DNA of 64,000 nucleotides from a virus (IMGVR_UViG_3300045988_056908:65792-129791); one strand, 5' to 3'. Counted from the first letter of the stretch, positions 6,376 through 42,684 are shown. Translations and numbers: made by a program. The notes: generated from the sequence alone by a model not told the origin.

Positions 6376-7185
6376 TTATTTACAAACGTCTATTACAGTT
6401 AAGTTCTCGTTGCTGGGACGATAATTAATATCCCTATGAGAATTAGATACAATAACCTGGTCAAAATTATTACACATATTAATCAGACCTTTATCATTAA
6501 CTGCGTGACATACAATTATGATAAACTTGCTATTTGGATATCTCTCTTTGAGAACCTTAAGCTCTCCTAGGAAAGTTCCTCCAGCATCACACAAGTCATC
6601 AATGAACACAAATGTAGAATAGTAGCAATTCTTAGACTCCTCTATTTCAAAGGACTCAATTCTTCCAGTCTCTAGATTTCTTTCCTTTTTGAAAATTAAA
6701 TAACCATAGTGAGAATAGTTACTTCCATATCTGTCCTTCGCCCCGTGGTCTGGGAACACGATATTACTTTGGGCTGGAATCCAAGAGTGGTGTCCAAATT
6801 CCCAAGGTAAACATCTGTCACCAAGAAGATGAAAAGTTCTACTAGAATGTGCCTCAAGAACATATATGTTTCTATAGCCTAAGCTATTTAACATATTACA
6901 TACTACTTTCAAGGAGAATGGACGATTAAAACTCATTACTCTATCCATACGCATAGACATTAAATAAGTAATGTGTAAATCCCATTCTACTTCTTGTCTA
7001 TCTAAAATATCTCCTACTTGCATTAAGAGGAATAAATCCTCAGTATTAGATATTCTACAAATGACATCAATAGATTCCTTTCTGTTTAATTCCTCAGTAA
7101 GGAAAAACTGAGGCTCTCCATCAGGAAATCTAGTAACATCGTACTTAATTTCACTGATTTCCTTGTTGATTAAGTTTAATTTCAT
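6376..7185 (-). CDS. ribose-phosphate pyrophosphokinase (Prs) family protein; candidate ADP-ribose pyrophosphate synthetase (Adps-like)
   Basis: N-terminal Prs-like KYDVTRFPDGEPQF and the PRPP-binding signature FIDDLCDAGGTF. Adjacent to a NAMPT-like gene. Confidence 0.75.
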   Translation of the reverse strand: MKLNLINKEISEIKYDVTRFPDGEPQFFLTEELNRKESIDVICRISNTEDLFLLMQVGDILDRQEVEWDLHITYLMSMRMDRVMSFNRPFSLKVVCNMLNSLGYRNIYVLEAHSSRTFHLLGDRCLPWEFGHHSWIPAQSNIVFPDHGAKDRYGSNYSHYGYLIFKKERNLETGRIESFEIEESKNCYYSTFVFIDDLCDAGGTFLGELKVLKERYPNSKFIIIVCHAVNDKGLINMCNNFDQVIVSNSHRDINYRPSNENLTVIDVCK

Positions 7186-7615
7186 CTACTACATATTTTA
7201 AGATTTCATAACTTTCTTCCAGACCTGCCCTATCATCTAGGAGGATATTGTAATAAGGTTTCTTAGATTTAGAGAATATAGAACTACTAATGTTTGGAGC
7301 AGATAAAGTATTAGAAGTAATATTTGCTATTCCTAATCGCATACAAATTGTCTGCTTTGCCATAATTTTATAATCATCTTCATCAGTGGTGAATAAAATC
7401 ATTTCAAAACCTAGAAGTGAGCATTCTTTAAGTAGTTCTATAACGCAACTATAATCTCCGCCAGTATTATGGTAATCGAAAATAGTATTATCAAAATCGA
7501 AAGCGACTATTAGCTTTCCGTATTTATGATACTCTTCTAATAGTCGTTTCTTGCAAGCTTCTTTCCCAAAAGGATGATTAAAGTCCACGGTCAATTCTTT
7601 GTCTAATTTCTTCAA
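7151..7615 (-). CDS. HAD-superfamily hydrolase or phosphatase
   Basis: HAD motif I DFDNT (DxDxT) near the N-terminus. ORF sits between the prs-like and NAMPT-like genes. Confidence 0.6.
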   Translation of the reverse strand: MKKLDKELTVDFNHPFGKEACKKRLLEEYHKYGKLIVAFDFDNTIFDYHNTGGDYSCVIELLKECSLLGFEMILFTTDEDDYKIMAKQTICMRLGIANITSNTLSAPNISSSIFSKSKKPYYNILLDDRAGLEESYEILKYVVDEIKLNQQGNQ

Positions 7616-9128
7616 GAGAATATTCTTTCTTCAAGATACCATCTTCAAAGACAGTCTCTAAGCATCCCTCTTTTTCCTCCTCGATTGAGACCTGGTCGGC
7701 AGCAGTATACTTCCCATCCAGACCTTTATAGACAGCAATCAAACCTTTCAAAGAGTTCTTAGTACCATCATCAGTTTTAGGATGTTTGAAGATTTCTTTC
7801 AACTCGCCATTTACTACGCAAGCAGTAGCCTTAATAGCAAACCCAAGACTATCTCTACTTGCATACTGATAGGAATATGAACCTACTCCCAGAACGAGAT
7901 TACAAGCCGCCATATTAGCGTTTTCTAATCTCAAGTAGATTTGCTTTTGACGTTCTAGAGTAATAGAATCTCCATAAAGCAGACCAACCTTAGTGCTAGG
8001 ATAGCGGTAATCCTTTGAAGTAGTATTCCATCCGAAGATTTTACCAAGCATATAATATGCCCCATAATATTGACCTTCGGACACTTCAACATACTCTGCA
8101 TCGTCGTTAAACGGAGCATAGCAGCAATAATACTTACCTTCTTTCATTCTGGTATTGAAGTGAGGATTAGTTCTCAACCCGCAGATTATATCTACTGGGT
8201 CTCCACTATCAGGACGGATTACTACTCTACCATCACGAGCCATAATGTCTTTCTTCAGCTTGGGTAAGAAATTTTCAATTACATTCCAGAAATCCCAAGT
8301 ATCAGATACAATAGAAACAAACCCAGAAGGATACAAATCATTAATTAGACGTTTGAAAGTGCCCAGCTCATCTTCCTCCCCTCCAGCACACATTACAGAG
8401 TGTTCTGTTGCTGGAACTGTAGCAGCAATCAATTCCTCGTCTGAATTAGCTCCATAATATTCTTCCAGGGCAGCAATAGCTGGAATAGTCTCACTTCCCA
8501 CAAAAGAAGTCATATGCGCCATACCAGATATGATTGCAGCTTCCATTCCCGCCATACCTCGCATTGAGAAATCATGACAACAAAAACCAAGATTTACATC
8601 TGTTGGAAAACCAGTCTTGCAAGCATGACGATGTAGCTCTTTCTTATAAAGCCTAGCTCTAGTAGCAGATGTGCATGGCATCCACAAGGTACAGCTGATA
8701 ATAGTCTCTAAGTAGTTAGTTAACCAAAAGAACTCGGGTAGGGTATTTGTAATGGTCATCATGGGAACCCGAATAGGGCACACAGAACCTTCAGGAAGAG
8801 CCTTTATGCGAATTGGTAGATACCCAAGGTCATATAAAGCTTCAATATGTCTGTACCCAACGGATTCAATACCAACAAAGTTGTTTACTCTACGATAGAA
8901 CATCTCCACAGCTTCCTTCTTTGGTAAATTAAAGAAGTTTTTCTCAAACTGTTTAATGAGATATTCTTTGATTAGGTATTGAATACCAAATACTACTGAA
9001 CCTTCGGTTGCTTCTGGGAAGTATTTATTACTTCTAGGAGTCCAGTTACTATAAACTTGTTCAGTACCTTCGGGGTACATTCTGTGATGGCCCAATTTGT
9101 AACCATCTGTAGCATTAATTATTTCCAT
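7578..9128 (-). CDS. nicotinamide phosphoribosyltransferase family (NadV/NAMPT-like; candidate Namat)
   Basis: 516 aa. N-terminus INATDGYKLGHHRMYPEGTEQVYSNWTPRS resembles the NAMPT N-terminus ATDSYK...Y. The length fits the family. Confidence 0.8.
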   Translation of the reverse strand: MEIINATDGYKLGHHRMYPEGTEQVYSNWTPRSNKYFPEATEGSVVFGIQYLIKEYLIKQFEKNFFNLPKKEAVEMFYRRVNNFVGIESVGYRHIEALYDLGYLPIRIKALPEGSVCPIRVPMMTITNTLPEFFWLTNYLETIISCTLWMPCTSATRARLYKKELHRHACKTGFPTDVNLGFCCHDFSMRGMAGMEAAIISGMAHMTSFVGSETIPAIAALEEYYGANSDEELIAATVPATEHSVMCAGGEEDELGTFKRLINDLYPSGFVSIVSDTWDFWNVIENFLPKLKKDIMARDGRVVIRPDSGDPVDIICGLRTNPHFNTRMKEGKYYCCYAPFNDDAEYVEVSEGQYYGAYYMLGKIFGWNTTSKDYRYPSTKVGLLYGDSITLERQKQIYLRLENANMAACNLVLGVGSYSYQYASRDSLGFAIKATACVVNGELKEIFKHPKTDDGTKNSLKGLIAVYKGLDGKYTAADQVSIEEEKEGCLETVFEDGILKKEYSLEEIRQRIDRGL

Positions 9129-9943
9129 TCTAATTTTTTGTTAAAAGTTATTTCTTTTACTTCTTCAGTTTCGAGTTTTCCACCTTTGATAAAGTATTGG
9201 TGAATAAGAGTATTAATTGTTCTTGCTCCAAGAGTATTATTGCGAAAAGAGCTTTCAAGATACCCTTTCAAATCACTAATGACTTGTTCTCTATTCACAT
9301 TAAAGAATAAGTCAAGATAATTCTGTAACAAGTCTGAACACTCCAAGATAGAATACAAATCCTCTAGAGTGAGAGGTTTAGTATTGTAGATTAATCCTAC
9401 TCTTCCAAGAAACTCTGTTTTAACTCCAAAGTCTCTTAGTCTATCTAATGTAATGTGAGGCTCATTATTGAACGCTCCGGCAAACACAAATAGTACATTA
9501 TCAATAGGGACTGATATGTACTTCCCATAATCGCCAAAAACACTAGTAGTATCAGACTCTAAAAGTTTGAGAAACTCGTTCTGTACACTGGCAGTAGATT
9601 CATTAGCTAGTTGGCTATTAGTGTTTCCGTTGATGAAAAGTTTATCAAACTCGTCTACGAAGACTACGATAGGTGTGTGACTATAGTTAACAAGCGGAGA
9701 TAGAATTTTGCTTAAACTATTTCCAGAAATACCCTCTTTAGTTATTTGAGCTGCATTAACTTCTAGAAAGTTAAGTTCATTCATATCACATAACTGTTTA
9801 ATAGTAAAGCTCTTACCAGACCCACTCTCACCTGTAAGAATAAAGTGCGGTCTTATCTTGCAATTACTATTTACAAATACCTGAAATATTCTATTAACTT
9901 CCTTAATTAACTTGTCTTGCCCTATTATCTTACTCATAGTCAA
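9119..9943 (-). CDS. AAA+ ATPase
   Basis: Walker A GESGSGKS and Walker B VVFVDEFDK. Confidence 0.75.
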   Translation of the reverse strand: MTMSKIIGQDKLIKEVNRIFQVFVNSNCKIRPHFILTGESGSGKSFTIKQLCDMNELNFLEVNAAQITKEGISGNSLSKILSPLVNYSHTPIVVFVDEFDKLFINGNTNSQLANESTASVQNEFLKLLESDTTSVFGDYGKYISVPIDNVLFVFAGAFNNEPHITLDRLRDFGVKTEFLGRVGLIYNTKPLTLEDLYSILECSDLLQNYLDLFFNVNREQVISDLKGYLESSFRNNTLGARTINTLIHQYFIKGGKLETEEVKEITFNKKLEWK

Positions 9944-11005: not shown

Positions 11006-12022
11006 TCATTGTTCTGTTACGATTACGATTCTGTTAAATTCTCTATCTCCAAACTCAGTAGTGCTTCCGCAGCCTTTAACTATAAGCTTATCCTCTGGAG
11101 CGCCATAACTGATAAGGGCCTTCTTCATAGATTCTGCTCTAGCTACAGCTAAGTTGTCATTAAAATCTACTGGACCTTCTTCAGAAGCATATCCTTCAAT
11201 CATATATGACTTACCACTATTTGAAATATAAGCTGCTAACTCCGATACTGCAACATTAGAAGTTGTAGAGATTTCAGAAGAGTTCTGTAAAAACTGAATT
11301 TTAGGTGTAAGAAGTTCTACCTTAGTAACTACTATAGTATCAGTCTTAATTATTTCTACTGGTTTACGAGATTCCAATTCGCTATTCTTAACCCTCAACT
11401 CGTTAATAGCAGCATTAAGACTTTCTACTTCAGCGTCACTATATAGTTTCATCATAGGAAAGTTTCCTTTATTAGACTTAAACCGGTAAGTGGCTCCTAT
11501 ATAAACATTTACTTCATGATTTAGAGGAGTAGTCTTTGGAAGTAGCATATACTCTGGAGTAACATTTAGTGCCCAACTATCAGTAATATTAAAGTTGCAT
11601 CTAATTGCACCTCTTGCAGATACATTATTATAAACATCACCATAAGTATGATACCAACCAGCACCTATCAGTAATACAGGCTCAAATAAACGTCTAGAGC
11701 CTTCGTATCCACAAATAAGATTAGTTAGATTAGTAGTTACATTAGCTGTAAGGTTATGGGAATCGAAGAACGTTTTACTGCCTTGATTCATACCTGCCAT
11801 CATATCTAACTCTAGTCCGAAGATAGGAGTAATTTCTTTACCCACCGCAATATTTACTAATACATCATGAGGTTCAGCCCAACTTCTTGAGTTGTCCCAA
11901 ATTGTGGTACCTACATTACCAGAAACATACCAGTTATCTTTCAAACTTCCAGTTTCAACAACTTGTGCGCTAGCAAACACGCACATTAAACACAAACAAA
12001 TAATACTAAAAATTTTCTTCAT
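11006..12022 (-). CDS. OmpA-family outer-membrane protein (signal peptide, beta-barrel N-terminus, OmpA-like C-terminal peptidoglycan-binding domain)
   Basis: Signal peptide MKKIFSIICLCLMCVFASAQ. C-terminal MIEGYASEEGPVDFNDNLAVARAESMKKAL...REFNRIVIV matches OmpA C-terminal domain signatures. Confidence 0.75.
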   Translation of the reverse strand: MKKIFSIICLCLMCVFASAQVVETGSLKDNWYVSGNVGTTIWDNSRSWAEPHDVLVNIAVGKEITPIFGLELDMMAGMNQGSKTFFDSHNLTANVTTNLTNLICGYEGSRRLFEPVLLIGAGWYHTYGDVYNNVSARGAIRCNFNITDSWALNVTPEYMLLPKTTPLNHEVNVYIGATYRFKSNKGNFPMMKLYSDAEVESLNAAINELRVKNSELESRKPVEIIKTDTIVVTKVELLTPKIQFLQNSSEISTTSNVAVSELAAYISNSGKSYMIEGYASEEGPVDFNDNLAVARAESMKKALISYGAPEDKLIVKGCGSTTEFGDREFNRIVIVTEQ

Positions 12023-27621: not shown

Positions 27622-28242
27622 CTAGGAAGAGAACACAATCCCCTCAATGCCAGAGAGAAACTCAATCATAGATTGATTATGGTCTCCCATATCCTTTACG
27701 ATAATAACAGGAAGGTTCAACTTATTAGCTAATTCTTTAGCTGTGACAGTCTTTCCAGTACCTTTTGTACCAGTAAGCATGATTCCTAAGTTTCCTTCCG
27801 TGTTACTATAAGTTTTGATTACATGGTCTATGAAATCTTCCTGCAGTCCATACATCTTGTACGGAAATACGAACTTGTCTGCATACTTATCCAGGTGATA
27901 ACCTGTCATTGTCAGACAAATACTGTAGATTCCAACTGGGAGAGACTGCTCAACGCTATAGCCTGAGCTTACCTGGGTATATGTAGACCCAGAACACATC
28001 CAAACTTTGTTCATTTTTTCTTTTTCTAAGTTACTTAAAACAGATGCCTGTTTGAGACATCCTACTAATTGATTAGCTATAGATTCTATAGCTTCTTTGT
28101 TATCAGTTTCCTCTGAGAGTCTTTTTACAAACCACTCTTTAGAACGGGCAACTATTTGCTCATCAGTCTCATTTTCAGAGATTGTTTCAGCAAATTCATG
28201 GTAGATACTAGTCAGCTTACCTTCTAATTCTTCTACGGTCAT
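27622..28242 (-). CDS. AAA ATPase N-terminal part (Walker A); upstream half of a split gene
   Basis: IMLTGTKGTGKTVTAKELA P-loop about 40 aa before the ORF end. Terminates at TAG. The Walker B region follows in the -1 frame. Confidence 0.6.
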   Translation of the reverse strand: MTVEELEGKLTSIYHEFAETISENETDEQIVARSKEWFVKRLSEETDNKEAIESIANQLVGCLKQASVLSNLEKEKMNKVWMCSGSTYTQVSSGYSVEQSLPVGIYSICLTMTGYHLDKYADKFVFPYKMYGLQEDFIDHVIKTYSNTEGNLGIMLTGTKGTGKTVTAKELANKLNLPVIIVKDMGDHNQSMIEFLSGIEGIVFSS

Positions 28243-28978: not shown

Positions 28979-29389
28979 TTATACTACTTTAAGATGGCAA
29001 TAAATACTAAATTCTGGAATTGGAATCCAAGTTGCAATACCATTGCTATCTACTGGTTTACCCTTGTTGATTGTACAAATAGTGATATGAGGTTTAGCAT
29101 TTGCACAAGGCAGATATTGGTCTCCCAATTCTACTCCAAAAGCTATTGCTTTCTCAGAAATCCCTATTTTGTTTACAATTAATCGAAAATTACCATCTAT
29201 ACGATATTGTAGGTCATTAGCCATCTTTTCTTCATGTTGATTTTTATGGAGAAGAGTGCAATGATCTAAATAAATAGTACTTCCTCTTTGGAACACCAGA
29301 TTGCAAATAATGGGATTTCCAATGATAACTTGCATAAGTTTGTTTCTAGTTGGTTCATCTAAGAACAATCCAAAATACTGATAATTCAT
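28979..29389 (-). CDS. 2H phosphoesterase superfamily protein (LigT-like)
   Basis: Two H-x-T/S-x motifs: LDHCTLL and KPHITICT, in a 136-aa protein. Confidence 0.55.
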   Translation of the reverse strand: MNYQYFGLFLDEPTRNKLMQVIIGNPIICNLVFQRGSTIYLDHCTLLHKNQHEEKMANDLQYRIDGNFRLIVNKIGISEKAIAFGVELGDQYLPCANAKPHITICTINKGKPVDSNGIATWIPIPEFSIYCHLKVV

Positions 29390-39671: not shown

Positions 39672-41032
39672 GGTTTTCTTTTTAATTCGTTAAATCTTTT
39701 TCTTGCTAATTTTCCATTCACAAATGTTTCTGTAACTGTTCTGATGCCTTCTATGTGAATGGTATACTCGAAGGCGTGGGTTCCAGTGAGAGTTATCACT
39801 CTTCCCCCATGAATCTGTAAATCTTGCGCGAACAGTTGAATCGCAGTGTAATCTGTTGAATTTTCTCATTTTCTTTTTCTTTTAATCCTGACTACCTATT
39901 TCTAGGTAGTTTCGTCTTAATTTTCAAAGACTCGTCAGAGGATTTTTAAAAATATCCCCACCGCTGTGGGATAAAAAATGAACACTATCAAAAGACCTTC
40001 CTGTGCCACTCTCCTTTGAATTGTTTCACAACAATTACATAGTCTCTGGGCGTACCCATTATAATCTCCAATAATACACAACAATAGTTCCCTACTCTGG
40101 ACTTGAACCAGAATCTTCTCCTTTAGAGAGAGATATACTGACTTGTACTAGTAGGGAAATACTCCACCTGCCTAAGCTCCCTATGGGAGCTGTAGGCTAT
40201 CTAGAATAAGATGGAGAGTTATTTAGATAGTTTCCTACGCTATCTACGTTACCAACGTCCACTAAGAATATAGGTAGCTAATCCATATTCTTGCGACTGA
40301 GTTCGAGGTAGGAAATATACCCTTATGAGGTATCCTCTTATCAGCTAGCCTATCCTTATCGCTCCGCGATAAGGGTTTCTAGCGGCTTATACTAGGCAAC
40401 TTCTAAATAAATAAAATGCATAACTATAAGTGATATGCTTTGGTCGACTGGCATATCAGCAGTACTTCATAATGTTGCTATAAGCGACCAACCCTATAGC
40501 TCAATCCTCTTGTAATAGTGTTTAAGTTTGCGAATATACACATTACAATCGTAGCAGTTATTTTCGGATATTGGGCTATCTGCGTAACCCCGCTTTTTGT
40601 TGCCTTTTTATAGGCTGATGTTAGAGTAAATAATCATTGTAGTATGAGTTATAAAACTCGTCCTACTGGCGATTTTTTGAAAACTGGAAAAAGTCGGAAA
40701 ATTGGGTGTCGGGGTTGTGGACAATTCTTCTCCTTACTCTCCATATTTTCACGTGAAACATACACGATTTTACTAGAAATGATAGTCTTTCCTATCAGCC
40801 AGACATAAAACTAAAACTACTACAAAAGTTAACTCGGTTTTTGATTTTTTTTTGTTTTGTTGTTGATTTCTCCGTTGACCAATGTTCCAATGATGGAGTT
40901 CATATGGGCATTTTATTTTAACTCATAATACCTTAGAGCTGCACGTTTGACTTATTTTAAATCTCGTTGTGCGCTGAGATTGACTCTAAGATTCGGTCAC
41001 ACTCTCACTTATTTATACACGAGAGAGTCGTG
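39672..41032. other. about 1.36 kb of ORF-poor DNA carrying several perfect hairpins (39893-39910, 39953-39972, 40168-40182, 40349-40371) and a T-rich tract (40845-40860)
   Basis: No ORF of 60 aa or more on either strand. Examples: CTACCTATTTCTAGGTAG, CCTTATCGCTCCGCGATAAGG, GCTCCCTATGGGAGC. Confidence 0.4.
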
Positions 41033-42582: not shown

Positions 42583-42654
42583 TGCCCTATGGTGTAATGG
42601 TCAGCACAGATGACTCTAAATCATTTAGTCTGGGTTCGAATCCTAGTAGGGCAA
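42583..42654 (+). tRNA. amber suppressor tRNA, anticodon CUA, derived from tRNA-Gln (predicted to insert Gln at UAG)
   Basis: TGCCCTA TG GTGTAATGGTCAGCAC A GATGA CTCTAAA TCATT TAGT CTGGGTTCGAATCCTAG TAGGGCA A. Anticodon loop CTCTAAA gives CUA. The backbone (TGGTGTAATGGT..., CCTAGTAG...) is closely similar to tRNA-Gln(UUG) at 30390-30461. Confidence 0.8.
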
Positions 42655-42684
42655 CGCCAAAATTAATAGTTATGATAAATTTAA

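What the first reader, a model, noticed from the sequence alone, without database searches (positions are those of the whole stretch)
6376..9128. Prs-like plus HAD phosphatase plus NAMPT-like cluster: candidate NAD+ reconstitution (NARP1-like) counter-defence
Three consecutive genes encode a PRPP-synthetase-family enzyme (PRPP-binding loop FIDDLCDAGGTF), a HAD hydrolase (DFDNT), and a 516-aa NAMPT-family enzyme. No NMN adenylyltransferase is visible nearby. The recently described phage NARP1 pathway pairs a Prs homologue (ADPR-PP synthetase, Adps) with a NAMPT homologue (Namat) to rebuild NAD+ from ADPR and nicotinamide after NAD-depleting immunity (Thoeris, DSR, SIR2 and related systems). Alternatively this is classical PRPP plus nicotinamide to NMN salvage. 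The interposed HAD phosphatase is an extra, unexplained member.
Basis: partly seen in the sequence, partly recalled or inferred. Interest (0 to 1): 0.7.

Follow-up and report, generated by a model that had tools for sequence, protein, structure and literature searches.

The report
Phage NAD-rebuilding operon with extra phosphatase
A gut crAss-like phage carries the known two-enzyme pathway that rebuilds NAD+ after bacterial immunity destroys it, plus a small, previously unremarked phosphatase gene that sits beside this pathway in many unrelated phages and bacteria and probably extends what the pathway can use as raw material.

Summary
Three overlapping minus-strand genes encode a NAMPT-like protein (7578-9128), a 154-aa HAD phosphatase (7151-7615) and a Prs-like protein (6376-7185). 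No NMNAT, Nudix or Macro gene was found in the 64-kb window.

The NARP1 reading is supported by sequence. The NAMPT-like protein scores 490 bits against the crystallised SPbetaL1 Namat and about 226 bits against true NAMPTs. It carries the adenine-clamp motif GSYSYQYASRD and keeps 15 of 20 NAD-contact residues, with the other 5 conservative changes. The Prs-like protein falls in the phage Adps clade (100% bootstrap against Prs) and keeps the catalytic lysine. Related crAss-like phages are already listed in Osterman 2024's NARP1 tables, so the core is a new member of a known kind.

My best guess, which is inferred, is that it dephosphorylates a phospho-ADPR such as ADPR-1''P to feed Adps. That would make it a non-homologous analogue of the Macro-domain phosphatase Adpp.

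The parts
7578..9128 (-). Namat-type nicotinamide ADP-ribose transferase (516 aa), first gene of the trio. It ends in TAA.
   Evidence: It scores 8e-146 / 490 bits against 9W5X/9W5W, the SPbetaL1 Namat, and about 226 bits against mammalian NAMPT. The clamp motif reads GSYSYQYASRD. Of the 20 NAD-contact residues, 15 are identical and 5 are conservative changes. R306 maps to R305 and the catalytic His in ATEHS is kept. It matches phrog_448 at 7e-182. It has an insertion of about 38 aa (residues 318-355) relative to SPbetaL1 Namat.
7151..7615 (-). Minimal capless HAD-superfamily phosphatase (154 aa from TTG 7615, or 145 aa from GTG 7588). It is the middle gene, ends in TGA, and overlaps both neighbours.
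6376..7185 (-). Adps-type ADP-ribose pyrophosphokinase (269 aa), last gene of the trio. It ends in TAA.
   Evidence: In the NJ tree the Adps clade excludes Prs with 100% bootstrap, and the window protein groups with crAss-like Adps at 100%. TIGR01251 gives 60 bits against a cut-off of 113; E. coli Prs scores 423, Bas63 Adps 138 and SPbetaL1 Adps 106. SPbetaL1 K162 maps to window K167. The Adps-type motifs KKERNLETG and DDLCDAGGTF are present. It is 45% identical to cr126_1 Adps, which is listed in Osterman Table S1.
7260..7500 (-). Hypervariable central cassette inside the HAD gene (codons ~50-118). It corresponds to the segment between HAD motifs I/II and III, at the C2-cap insertion site.
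   Evidence: Against IMG/VR locus L029 the region 5.4-10.2 kb is mostly 97-100% identical (90-100% per 60-nt window), apart from the AAA gene, which L029 lacks, and this patch, which is 47-58% identical. At least four alleles share nearly identical N- and C-terminal segments but differ here.

Best explanation
The cluster is a three-gene version of the phage NAD+ reconstitution pathway NARP1, carried in the early/middle, standard-code gene block of a human-gut crAss-like phage.

Core pathway, inferred from strong homology to characterised enzymes: after a host NADase (SIR2, TIR, SEFIR and similar) splits NAD+ into ADP-ribose and nicotinamide, the Prs-like enzyme (Adps) uses ATP to pyrophosphorylate ADPR at C1'' and gives ADPR-PP. 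The NAMPT-like enzyme (Namat) then replaces the pyrophosphate with nicotinamide and regenerates NAD+ directly, so no NMNAT is needed.

The middle gene: it encodes a catalytically intact, capless HAD phosphatase. It is not a passenger. It is a conserved accessory of this pathway in many phage and bacterial lineages.

Most likely role of the HAD, inferred from context and precedent and not shown: it removes a phosphate from a phosphorylated ADPR species that Adps cannot use. The leading candidate is ADPR-1''-phosphate, made either by RES-domain NAD+ phosphorylases (aRES) or by decay of ADPR-PP/ADPR-cP. 2'-phospho-ADPR derived from NADP+ is another candidate. The product, ADPR, would feed Adps. 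On this reading the HAD is a non-homologous functional analogue of the Macro-domain phosphatase Adpp of NARP1-AP.

Confidence by part: NARP1 core identity about 0.9. HAD functionally coupled to the pathway about 0.85. HAD substrate is a phospho-ADPR feeding Adps about 0.4.
For: Namat identity:
- 490 bits against the SPbetaL1 Namat crystal structures, against 226 bits for NAMPT.
- The published Namat-specific clamp motif GSX-phi-X-phi-X-phi-TRD with aromatic X is present as GSYSYQYASRD.
- 15 of 20 NAD contacts are identical and the rest are conservative.

Adps identity:
- Adps clade at 100% bootstrap, catalytic Lys conserved, far below the Prs model cut-offs.
- A Namat gene lies immediately adjacent, which is the criterion Osterman 2024 used (97% of Adps-clade members).
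- crAss-like relatives are already in their tables.

No NMNAT, Nudix or Macro in the window.

HAD is catalytic: all four motifs are invariant and the fold is HAD.

HAD is linked to NARP1:
- 71 of 76 IMG/VR loci and 55 of 80 bacterial-genome loci have Adps and/or Namat beside it.
- Dereplicated at 70% identity, 27 of 46 clusters have both partners under strict distance cut-offs and 9 more have one partner or the A-N-H order. Gene orders seen are NHA, AHN, HAN, ANH and NPH.
- The lineages are unrelated: crAss-like phages, Bacillus Wphvirus, Phass-1, Lak megaphages, Flavobacteriia, Saprospiraceae, Cohnella/Paenibacillus and Bdellovibrionales.

HAD is accessory: cr85_1 has Namat abutting Adps with no HAD. 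Only about 6% of Adps-encoding phage records have the HAD (82 of 1364).

Precedent: accessory genes inserted in NARP1 operons convert modified ADPR to ADPR. Examples are the Macro Adpp acting on ADPR-1''P and RyDEP acting on cADPR signals.

Other support:
- In Lak phages the HAD stays next to Adps while Namat lies elsewhere.
- aRES systems are recorded in Bacteroidales and B. cereus.
- HAD and Macro are almost mutually exclusive, co-occurring in 1 of about 130 NARP1+HAD loci.
Against: - No biochemistry exists for any of the three proteins.
- The Prs outgroup in my tree is small.
- The SCL stacking residue is assigned by alignment only (K35-Y36).
- Nothing in the sequence or model identifies the HAD substrate. 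Foldseek found no PDB neighbour, and the nearest fold, BT0820, is uncharacterised.
- One locus (L158) has both a Macro Adpp homologue and the HAD, which argues against simple redundancy.
- In Mucilaginibacter the HAD sits by a true Prs-type kinase and a Nampt-type transferase without the aromatic clamp, so its role is not strictly tied to ADPR-PP chemistry.
- 28 of 160 loci show no NARP1 partner.
- The near-exclusivity of HAD and Macro may simply reflect host phylum (Proteobacteria against Bacteroidota/Bacillota).
Confidence: 0.7

Rival explanations
1. The NARP1 core is as described, but the HAD is an inorganic pyrophosphatase. It would hydrolyse the PPi released by Namat (or by Nampt) and so pull the transferase reaction towards NAD+/NMN.
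For: PPi is the one product shared by Namat and Nampt. That would explain the HAD's association with both Namat-type partners and, in Mucilaginibacter, Nampt-type partners. In Bacillus phages and Phass-1 the HAD is next to Namat rather than Adps. HAD-family pyrophosphatases exist (BT2127; from my own knowledge).
Against: Hosts already have abundant inorganic pyrophosphatase. In Lak megaphages, Cohnella and Paenibacillus the HAD is next to Adps, and in Lak phages Namat is hundreds of kb away. The known HAD pyrophosphatase has a cap domain (my own knowledge), whereas this protein is capless with an open site. No sequence similarity to any characterised pyrophosphatase was found.
Confidence: 0.1
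2. The NARP1 core is as described, but the HAD acts on a different NAD-related phosphoester. Options include NADP+/NADPH 2'-phosphate (turning NADP into NAD), NMN/NaMN (a 5'-nucleotidase) or ribose-1,5-bisphosphate. It would then top up or balance pyridine-nucleotide pools rather than feed Adps with ADPR.
Against: Dephosphorylating NMN would waste the side product of the pathway. Nothing specific supports NADP as substrate. The overwhelming partner is Adps/Namat, whose only known input is ADPR.
Confidence: 0.15
3. The cluster is classical salvage: Prs makes PRPP, a NadV-type NAMPT makes NMN, a host NMNAT finishes NAD+, and the HAD is an unrelated nucleotide phosphatase.
For: Automated annotation says so. 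NCBIfam NF006629 names the large protein 'nicotinate phosphoribosyltransferase' at 525 bits, above its cut-off, and the PHROGs call the proteins 'ribose-phosphate pyrophosphokinase' and 'nicotinamide phosphoribosyl transferase'. SPbetaL1 Namat retains weak PRPP-to-NMN activity in vitro.
Against: The protein has the Namat-specific aromatic clamp that NAMPTs lack, and it scores twice as high against Namat as against NAMPT. The kinase lies in the Adps clade and fails every Prs model cut-off. Validated SPbetaL1 Adps gave no PRPP-synthetase-type product. No phage NMNAT was found in the window.
Confidence: 0.04
4. The HAD is a Pnkp-like 3'-phosphatase for nucleic-acid ends, or a dNMP nucleotidase, that merely hitch-hikes next to NARP1.
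Against: Adjacency to Adps/Namat is kept in five different gene orders across phages of three host phyla and in bacterial chromosomes. Hitch-hiking cannot explain that. The RNA-repair-like ORFs are about 20 kb away. No kinase domain is fused to the HAD.
Confidence: 0.05

Closest known systems
NARP1 (Adps + Namat) of phages Bas63, SPbetaL1 and FADO (Osterman et al. 2024, bioRxiv 10.1101/2024.02.11.579819; Namat structures 9W5W/9W5X, Lan et al. 2026, PMC12774641)
   Same: Both core enzymes are present, adjacent and co-directional. The Namat clamp motif, the NAD-contact residues, the catalytic Arg and His, and the Adps catalytic Lys are all conserved. There is no NMNAT. crAss-like relatives are already in the authors' NARP1 tables.
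   Different: The gene order is Namat first and Adps last, with a third gene between them. Adps is only 25-30% identical to the validated enzymes. The clamp has Ser where the consensus has Thr, and Lys-Tyr where SPbetaL1 has Arg40. Namat has an insertion of about 38 aa. The host phylum is Bacteroidota. None of the activities has been tested.
NARP1-AP: Adps, Adpp (Macro-domain ADPR-1''P phosphatase), Namat of Vibrio phage Gary (Osterman et al. 2026, bioRxiv 10.64898/2026.01.28.702374)
   Same: It is a three-gene operon with a small phosphatase gene placed between, or next to, Adps and Namat. The phosphatase is an accessory present in a minority of NARP1 operons (15% for Macro; about 6% of Adps-encoding phage records for the HAD). 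The proposed logic is the same: convert a phosphorylated ADPR into ADPR for Adps.
   Different: The phosphatase has a different fold (HAD, not Macro) and uses a different catalytic mechanism (aspartyl-phosphate intermediate; established HAD chemistry, from my own knowledge). No Macro gene is present in the window. Hosts are Bacteroidota/Bacillota rather than Proteobacteria. The substrate is unknown. One locus carries both phosphatases.
RyDEP glycosidase inserted in the NARP1 operon of mycobacteriophage DyoEdafos (Lopez Rivera et al. 2026, bioRxiv 10.64898/2026.05.28.727677)
   Same: It is an accessory enzyme embedded in a NARP1 locus whose product (linear ADPR) feeds Adps.
   Different: RyDEP cleaves a ribose-ribose glycosidic bond in cADPR signals. 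A HAD phosphatase cannot do this. The two proteins share no homology.
NARP2 / classical NadV-NadM(Nudix) salvage, e.g. vibriophage KVP40 (Osterman et al. 2024)
   Same: It uses a NAMPT-family transferase and counteracts NAD+ depletion.
   Different: NARP2 needs an NMNAT/Nudix enzyme and PRPP. No NMNAT or Nudix was found in the window, and the transferase here is Namat-type, not Nampt-type.
BT0820-family capless HAD phosphatases (PDB 2OBB; NCBIfam NF046079) and the T4 Pnkp 3'-phosphatase domain
   Different: Identity is only 22%. The NF046079 score is 20 bits against a cut-off of 165, so this is not a BT0820 equivalog. BT0820 has no known substrate. There is no kinase domain as in Pnkp.

Membership tests
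Namat (nicotinamide ADP-ribose transferase of NARP1) | A NAMPT-fold protein closer to characterised Namat than to characterised Nampt | tested here: met
   phmmer against the PDB gives 489.7 bits (8e-146) for SPbetaL1 Namat 9W5X/9W5W, 226 bits for mammalian NAMPT and 200 bits for a bacterial 'PBEF-related' Nampt.
Namat (nicotinamide ADP-ribose transferase of NARP1) | Selectivity-clamp helix motif GSX-phi1-X-phi2-X-phi3-TRD with aromatic X residues that stack on adenine (Lan 2026) | tested here: met
   The window has G416-S-Y-S-Y-Q-Y-A-S-R-D426. All three X positions are Tyr, phi1 is S, phi2 is Q and phi3 is A, with T replaced by S. F392 maps to Y418 and Y396 to Y422. For contrast, the Nampt-type sequence in Mucilaginibacter reads GMGGALLQKVDRD.
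Namat (nicotinamide ADP-ribose transferase of NARP1) | Selectivity-clamp loop with Arg, or Lys/Tyr followed by a stacking residue, at the position of SPbetaL1 R40 | tested here: inconclusive
   The pairwise alignment puts K35-Y36 at R40-V41, which fits the Bas63-type rule. However, the loop is variable and differs in length by 2 residues, and no structure or model was examined.
Namat (nicotinamide ADP-ribose transferase of NARP1) | Conserved catalytic core (R306, catalytic His, NAM/R5P contacts) | tested here: met
   R305, D307, H243 in ATEHS, F187, S188, R190, Y10 and D8 are present. 15 of 20 NAD contacts are identical and 5 are conservative changes.
Namat (nicotinamide ADP-ribose transferase of NARP1) | Prefers ADPR-PP over PRPP and makes NAD+ directly | not testable with these tools
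   This needs an enzyme assay.
Adps (ADPR pyrophosphokinase of NARP1) | Falls in the phage Adps clade, separate from cellular Prs | tested here: met
   In an NJ tree of 23 Adps and 3 Prs sequences, the Adps clade that contains the window protein has 100% bootstrap (200 replicates). The window protein groups with crAss-like Adps at 100%. blastp gives 52-92 bits against non-crAss Adps and 38-50 bits against Prs.
Adps (ADPR pyrophosphokinase of NARP1) | A Namat homologue within ten genes (97% of the clade) | tested here: met
   Namat lies one gene away in the same overlapping gene string.
Adps (ADPR pyrophosphokinase of NARP1) | Catalytic lysine (SPbetaL1 K162, which inactivates the enzyme when changed to Ala) | tested here: met
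   K167 in KKERNLETG aligns with K162. The Adps-type K-x-R-[ND]-x-x-T-G and GGTF motifs are present, where Prs has KRRP-R and GGT[LI].
Adps (ADPR pyrophosphokinase of NARP1) | Uses ADPR, not ribose-5-phosphate, as the acceptor | not testable with these tools
   This needs an enzyme assay. No Adps structure was found in the PDB copy.
Bona fide ribose-phosphate pyrophosphokinase (Prs) | Reaches the curated Prs model cut-offs | tested here: not met
   TIGR01251 gives 60.3 bits against a cut-off of 113, and all equivalog models are far below cut-off. Pfam Pribosyltran_N and Pribosyltran are also below their gathering scores. E. coli Prs scores 423 bits.
NARP1-AP (NARP1 with associated phosphatase) | A third, phosphatase-encoding gene inside the Adps/Namat operon | tested here: met
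   The HAD gene overlaps both neighbours and all its catalytic motifs are intact.
NARP1-AP (NARP1 with associated phosphatase) | The phosphatase is a Macro-domain (Poa1p-like) Adpp | tested here: not met
   There is no Macro family in the window. An Adpp HMM built from 8 published sequences finds nothing in the window or in 159 of the 160 HAD loci. The fold is HAD.
NARP1-AP (NARP1 with associated phosphatase) | Dephosphorylates ADPR-1''P to ADPR and rescues phage from aRES | not testable with these tools
   This needs biochemistry and plaque assays.
HAD (haloacid dehalogenase-like) phosphatase superfamily | Four catalytic motifs: DxDx[TV], S/T, K, and DD/ExxxD | tested here: met
   D40-F-D42-N-T44, T76, K119 and D127-D128 are invariant or nearly invariant in alignments A1 and A2.
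HAD (haloacid dehalogenase-like) phosphatase superfamily | Rossmannoid HAD core fold | tested here: met
HAD (haloacid dehalogenase-like) phosphatase superfamily | Membership of a curated HAD sequence family (Pfam, or the NCBIfam BT0820 equivalog) | tested here: not met
   There are no Pfam hits at E<=1. NF046079 gives 20.4 bits against a cut-off of 165. The only match is PHROG 1238, which is labelled 'phosphoheptose isomerase'.
NARP2 / classical NadV salvage | A partner NMN adenylyltransferase (often fused to Nudix) in the phage genome | tested here: not met
   Neither was found among 70 ORFs of the 64-kb window. The remaining roughly 35-40 kb of the genome was not available.

The most novel reading that the evidence does not exclude
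The HAD defines a second, non-homologous class of NARP1-associated phosphatase that is widespread in phages of Bacteroidota and Bacillota and in some bacteria. It would let NARP1 use a phosphorylated ADPR produced either by aRES-type NAD+ phosphorylases or by a still undescribed NAD(P)-degrading defence. Its sharply hypervariable central cassette, set between invariant catalytic segments, would record an arms race over substrate range or over a host inhibitor.
Probability: 0.35. Interest if true: 0.75.

Novelty: new variant of a known kind. Interest (0 to 1): 0.6.

Why it matters
NAD+ depletion is one of the commonest bacterial anti-phage strategies. NARP1 is the main known phage answer, and its limits are set by which NAD+ breakdown products it can use.

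crAss-like phages are the most abundant human-gut viruses, and little is known about how they evade Bacteroides immunity. Placing a NARP1 module in them is incremental, because relatives are already in the published tables.

The larger point is that a catalytically intact HAD phosphatase travels with Adps/Namat across at least 27 dereplicated lineages and five gene orders. That gives a concrete hypothesis that can be tested quickly: a third kind of 'feeder' enzyme for NARP1, after Macro Adpp and RyDEP. It also points to phospho-ADPR-producing defences in Bacteroidota and Bacillota.

On the practical side, current annotation hides the system. The HAD is labelled 'phosphoheptose isomerase', Namat 'nicotinate phosphoribosyltransferase' and Adps 'ribose-phosphate pyrophosphokinase'. 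The HAD family has no Pfam model, so domain-based screens of NARP1 neighbourhoods would miss it.

Tried and rejected
- PHROG membership as an Adps/Prs discriminator: rejected. E. coli Prs scores higher on phrog_619 (193 bits) than the window protein (177 bits).
- Sequence search of the HAD against the PDB: only noise.
- Foldseek against afdb50: the library was not available. BFVD returned only unnamed phage HAD-like proteins.
- Literature on BT0820/2OBB: nothing relevant. Searches for NARP1 together with HAD terms: no paper held both. Searches for crAss-like plus NAMPT/Prs: nothing relevant.
- Neighbourhoods of 'orphan' HADs (uncultured Bacilli, Clostridia, Pirellulaceae and others): neighbours have no Pfam hits or unrelated ones such as Ddl, a dockerin protein and radical SAM, so they give no functional clue.
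- Sigma-70 promoter and terminator scan around the cluster: counts equal the shuffled expectation, so it is uninformative.
- A link between the HAD and the CPD-like 2H phosphoesterase ORF in the window (ADPR-1'',2''-cyclic phosphate chemistry): set aside, because that ORF is a partial domain about 20 kb away among the tRNA genes.
- Fusion partners of long family members: a GIY-YIG fusion, probably a homing-endonuclease or gene-call artefact, and two Nuc_deoxyri_tr2 fusions. These are only weakly informative.
- Technical failures: the first bootstrap script timed out, and the first motif regex had the wrong spacing. Both were redone.


Full report
**1. What is there**

The window is part of a human-gut crAss-like phage. 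The region is 99% identical to an unannotated faecal phage record (MT836666) and 66-70% identical at the DNA level to Crassvirales of the Steigviridae (cr126_1, cr111_1, DAC15/17, Kolpuevirus).

They are transcribed in that order and overlap by 38 and 35 nt. They sit inside a tightly packed co-directional gene string.

The HAD start is ambiguous (TTG 7615, TTG 7594 or GTG 7588). Metagenomic gene calls use the 145-aa form.

The quoted motifs FIDDLCDAGGTF and DFDNT are present. Homology statistics leave no doubt that these are genes.

**2. The NAMPT-like protein is a Namat**

Against all PDB sequences, the best matches are 9W5X/9W5W at 490 bits (E 8e-146). Lan et al. 2026 identify these entries as the SPbetaL1 Namat bound to nicotinamide and to NAD+. 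True mammalian NAMPTs score about 226 bits and a bacterial Nampt about 200 bits.

Lan et al. define a Namat-specific 'selectivity clamp' that stacks on the adenine of ADPR-PP/NAD+. One part is a helix motif, GSX-phi-X-phi-X-phi-TRD, with aromatic X residues. The other is a loop that contributes Arg, or Lys/Tyr plus the next residue. The window protein reads GSYSYQYASRD. The alignment puts K35-Y36 at the position of SPbetaL1 R40.

Of the 20 residues that contact NAD+ in the crystal structure, 15 are identical and 5 are conservative changes (D to E, A to S, F to Y, R to K, T to S). R306, whose mutation inactivates the enzyme, and the catalytic His in ATEHS are both kept.

By contrast, a Nampt-type homologue I met in Mucilaginibacter reads GMGGALLQKVDRD at this site.

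**3. The Prs-like protein is an Adps**

- **Prs models.** It fails every curated Prs model. TIGR01251 gives 60 bits against a cut-off of 113, where E. coli Prs scores 423, Bas63 Adps 138 and SPbetaL1 Adps 106.
- **Tree.** I built an NJ tree with 23 Adps sequences, taken from Osterman 2024 Table S1 and from fetched loci. The Adps clade containing the window protein is separated from Prs with 100% bootstrap. The window protein groups with cr126_1, cr111_1 and DAC15 at 100%. This crAss group joins the Firmicutes-phage Adps (SPbetaL1, FADO, BPS13, Zuko, K, A511) at 92%.
- **Residues.** The catalytic Lys (SPbetaL1 K162) aligns with K167. The protein shares the Adps-type K-x-R-[ND]-x-x-T-G and GGTF motifs rather than the KRRP-R and GGT[LI] of Prs.
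- **Neighbourhood.** Osterman et al. found a Namat neighbour for 97% of Adps-clade proteins and almost never for bacterial prs. That criterion is met here.
- **Prior listing.** Their supplementary tables already list the cr126_1, cr111_1 and DAC15 proteins as Adps homologues with a Namat nearby, and the cr126_1 Namat as 'Adps-associated'. So NARP1 in crAss-like phages has in effect already been catalogued.

PHROG membership could not discriminate Adps from Prs.

**4. The refutation test**

A Pfam scan of 70 coding-strand ORFs across all 64 kb found no NMNAT (CTP_transf_like), no Nudix and no Macro domain. An HMM built from eight published Adpp sequences found nothing in the six-frame translation of the window.

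The remaining part of the genome was not available, so absence from the whole genome is not proven.

**5. The HAD gene is the interesting part**

*It is a real, catalytically intact HAD.* Motifs I-IV (D40xD42xT44, T76, K119, D127-D128) are invariant across homologues down to 37% identity. So are a family-specific D47-(Y)-H49..G52 loop and Y121-Y122-N123.

*It is a divergent, minimal HAD.*
- An AF2 model (pLDDT 87, pTM 0.82) shows a minimal capless core.
- Foldseek found nothing significant in the PDB.
- There is no Pfam match even at E<=1.
- The NCBIfam BT0820 model scores 20 bits against a cut-off of 165.
- The only family match is PHROG 1238, which is mislabelled 'phosphoheptose isomerase'.

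*The family is modest in size.* It has 864 representatives at E<=1e-3 among 1.84 billion cluster representatives.

**6. Genomic context of the HAD family**

| Source | Result |
|---|---|
| Annotated phage collection | 82 records: crAss-like, 15 Lak megaphages, 54 large Bacillus phages, Phass-1 and others |
| Bacillus Wphvirus (BPS13, Zuko) | Order Adps-Namat-HAD |
| cr126_1 and the window | Order Namat-HAD-Adps |
| Phass-1 | Nicotinamidase, Adps-type, Namat-type (GAYTYQYVTRD), HAD, NAD synthase |
| IMG/VR (76 loci) | 71 have both partners next to the HAD; 2 Lak-like loci have HAD-Adps only; 3 are cut at the contig end |
| One genome per GTDB species (80 loci) | 55 have Adps/Prs-like and/or Namat/Nampt-like genes beside the HAD |

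The bacterial loci include chromosomes of Flavobacteriia (Namat-HAD-Adps), Saprospiraceae and Bdellovibrionales (Adps-HAD-Namat), and Cohnella/Paenibacillus (HAD-Adps-Namat, with Adps 55% identical to SPbetaL1 Adps).

Nearly all linked transferases carry the aromatic Namat clamp.

Overall, 118 of 160 loci have both partners under strict distance cut-offs, 14 have one partner (this group includes the A-N-H orders) and 28 have none. After dereplication at 70% HAD identity there are 46 clusters: 27 with both partners, 9 with one and 10 with none.

The HAD is an accessory, not a core gene. cr85_1 has Namat abutting Adps with no HAD. Only 82 of about 1364 Adps-encoding phage records carry it, although in Bacillus phages the figure is 54 of 84.

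No paper in the searchable library mentions NARP1 together with any HAD term. The two papers that describe NARP1 accessory genes report a Macro-domain phosphatase and a RyR-domain glycosidase, not a HAD.

**7. How it most likely works**

*Shown elsewhere and transferred here by homology.* Adps + ATP + ADPR gives ADPR-PP. Namat + nicotinamide then gives NAD+ + PPi.

*Inferred for the HAD.* The enzyme hydrolyses a phosphomonoester. Its conserved placement with Adps/Namat implies that its substrate or product belongs to this pathway.

There are two precedents for accessory genes embedded in NARP1 operons, and both convert a modified ADPR into plain ADPR:
- Adpp acts on ADPR-1''P. That compound is made by aRES, and NARP1 cannot use it.
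- RyDEP acts on cADPR signals.

I therefore favour a phospho-ADPR phosphatase that feeds, or recycles to, Adps. Candidate substrates are:
- ADPR-1''P from RES-type NAD+ phosphorylases, or from decay of the labile ADPR-PP/ADPR-cP;
- 2'-phospho-ADPR from NADP+ cleavage.

Points that support this reading:
- aRES systems are recorded in Bacteroidales (B. thetaiotaomicron, Prevotella) and in B. cereus.
- In Lak megaphages the HAD stays beside Adps while Namat lies far away.
- Macro and HAD accessories are almost mutually exclusive.
- A capless HAD has an open active site that suits bulky substrates (general knowledge of HAD cap classes, from memory).

Points that weaken it:
- One locus (L158) carries both Macro and HAD.
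- In Mucilaginibacter the HAD accompanies a genuine Prs-type kinase and a Nampt-type transferase. A unifying chemistry would be removal of the C1 phosphate from a 5-substituted ribose-1-phosphate, that is ADPR-1''P to ADPR or ribose-1,5-bisphosphate to ribose-5-P. PPi hydrolysis would also fit both contexts.
- The substrate therefore remains open. I put about 0.4 on the phospho-ADPR feeder, 0.1 on a pyrophosphatase, 0.15 on another NAD-related phosphoester, and small weights on classical salvage and on hitch-hiking.

**8. Comparison and novelty**

By every sequence criterion I could test, the two core genes are members of Adps and Namat.

The trio works like NARP1-AP but is not a member of it, because the defining Macro-domain Adpp is absent and is replaced by an unrelated fold.

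I therefore file the core as a new member of a known kind, and the three-gene arrangement as a new variant of a known kind.

**9. Other observations**

- **Stop-codon recoding.** The phage carries 27 tRNA genes, including two amber-suppressor tRNA(CUA) genes. Its plus-strand late block (about 42-64 kb) only yields long ORFs if TAG is read as sense: 6170 aa against 1638 aa in stop-to-stop ORFs of at least 150 aa. The NARP1 genes lie in the standard-code block and end in TAA, TGA and TAA.
- **HAD mosaicism.** The HAD gene contains a sharply bounded hypervariable cassette. Against L029 the surrounding region, other than the AAA gene that L029 lacks, is mostly 97-100% identical, but about 240 nt inside the HAD drop to 47-58%. 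Several alleles share identical catalytic ends with different centres.
- **Deletion chimeras.** Natural deletion variants fuse the upstream AAA ATPase to the HAD at a VFVDEFD/VAFDFD microhomology and remove Namat entirely.
- **AAA ATPase polymorphism.** The upstream AAA ATPase gene is itself present in some genomes and absent in others.

Noticed in passing
window 40087-40157 (-), 42583-42655 (+); + strand block ~42700-64000: There are two tRNA(CUA) amber-suppressor genes among 27 tRNA genes. The + strand late-gene block has few long ORFs under table 11. Stop-to-stop ORFs of at least 150 aa rise from 7 (1638 aa) to 15 (6170 aa) if TAG is sense, and do not rise if TGA is sense. This points to TAG recoding of late genes, as is known for crAss-like phages. 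The GC skew flips at about 42 kb.
   Followed up: partly
window ~7260-7500 (inside the HAD gene); L029, L021, L036, L030: A sharply bounded mosaic patch. Near-identical phages (Namat and Adps 99-100% identical) carry HAD alleles only 68-69% identical, and all the divergence lies in codons ~50-118. The motif I and motif III/IV segments stay identical. This suggests cassette-like recombination or diversifying selection on the cap-equivalent region.
   Followed up: partly
proteins P0005, P0006, P0007 (metagenome contigs of 46-186 kb); corresponds to window 7500-9850: These are chimeric proteins made of the first ~100 aa of the upstream AAA ATPase joined to the HAD at its DFDNT motif (microhomology VFVDEFD/VAFDFD). 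They represent deletions that remove the whole Namat gene. There are three contigs and two different junctions. They could be natural NARP1-loss variants or assembly artefacts.
   Followed up: no
window 9119-9943 (-) AAA ATPase (phrog_5534); L029: The AAA ATPase gene directly upstream of Namat is entirely absent from the otherwise 97-100% identical locus L029. It is a presence/absence polymorphism next to the NARP1 module.
   Followed up: no
window 28979-29389 (-), 27622-28242 (-): A 136-aa ORF matches part of the fungal tRNA-ligase cyclic phosphodiesterase (2H) domain (PF08302, E 2e-7). A nearby ORF ends in a P-loop (AAA_18). Both lie among the tRNA genes and may be the remnant of an RNA-repair (CPD + kinase) system.
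   Followed up: partly
L161 (Phage Phass-1, OQ749652.1 93792-102178): A five-gene NAD cluster: nicotinamidase (isochorismatase, 1e-23), Adps-type kinase, Namat-type transferase (GAYTYQYVTRD), HAD, and NAD synthase NadE (7e-45). It hints at a deamidated variant of NARP1 running nicotinate to NaAD to NAD.
   Followed up: partly
L116, L117, L119, L136 (Mucilaginibacter chromosomes): Here the HAD family member lies 0.2-2.5 kb from a Nampt-type transferase (GMGGALLQKVDRD, no aromatic clamp) and a genuine Prs-type kinase (Pribosyltran_N 4e-19, Pribosyl_synth 3e-11). So the HAD also partners classical PRPP-based salvage.
   Followed up: partly
L158 4139-6200 (MAG contig DAORGW010000032.1): This is the only locus with both accessory phosphatases: an Adpp-like Macro protein (HMM E 1e-36), then Adps, an 83-aa ORF and the HAD (cut at the contig end). 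It argues that Macro and HAD are not simply redundant.
   Followed up: partly
L077, L079 and Lak phage records (e.g. MK250021 HAD at 420737, Namat at 196431): In Prevotella Lak megaphages the HAD is directly followed by Adps (a 45-nt gap), but the Namat homologue lies more than 200 kb away. The NARP1 genes are split, with the HAD staying beside Adps.
   Followed up: partly
proteins P0189, P0214 (from the representative search): The HAD domain is fused to a C-terminal nucleoside 2-deoxyribosyltransferase-like domain (PF15891, 4e-18 and 1e-8). This hints that the family handles nucleotide or ribosyl-phosphate substrates.
   Followed up: no
window 6376-9128; PHROG 1238, NCBIfam NF006629: Systematic misannotation. 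The HAD family is labelled 'phosphoheptose isomerase' in PHROGs and RefSeq phage records. Namat passes the NCBIfam equivalog cut-off for 'nicotinate phosphoribosyltransferase'. Adps is called 'ribose-phosphate pyrophosphokinase'.
   Followed up: yes
window 7578-9128, protein residues ~318-355: Namat has an insertion of about 38 aa (LRTNPHFNTRMKEGKYYCCYAPFNDDAEYVEVSEGQYY) relative to SPbetaL1 Namat, placed just after the RPDSGDPV motif. Enterobacterial-phage Namat sequences in Osterman Table S2 also appear to carry extra sequence after this motif.
   Followed up: no
window 11006-12022 (-): A phage-encoded 338-aa protein with an outer-membrane beta-barrel domain and an OmpA-family C-terminal domain (Pfam 2e-10 and 1e-10) and a signal-peptide-like N-terminus.
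   Followed up: no
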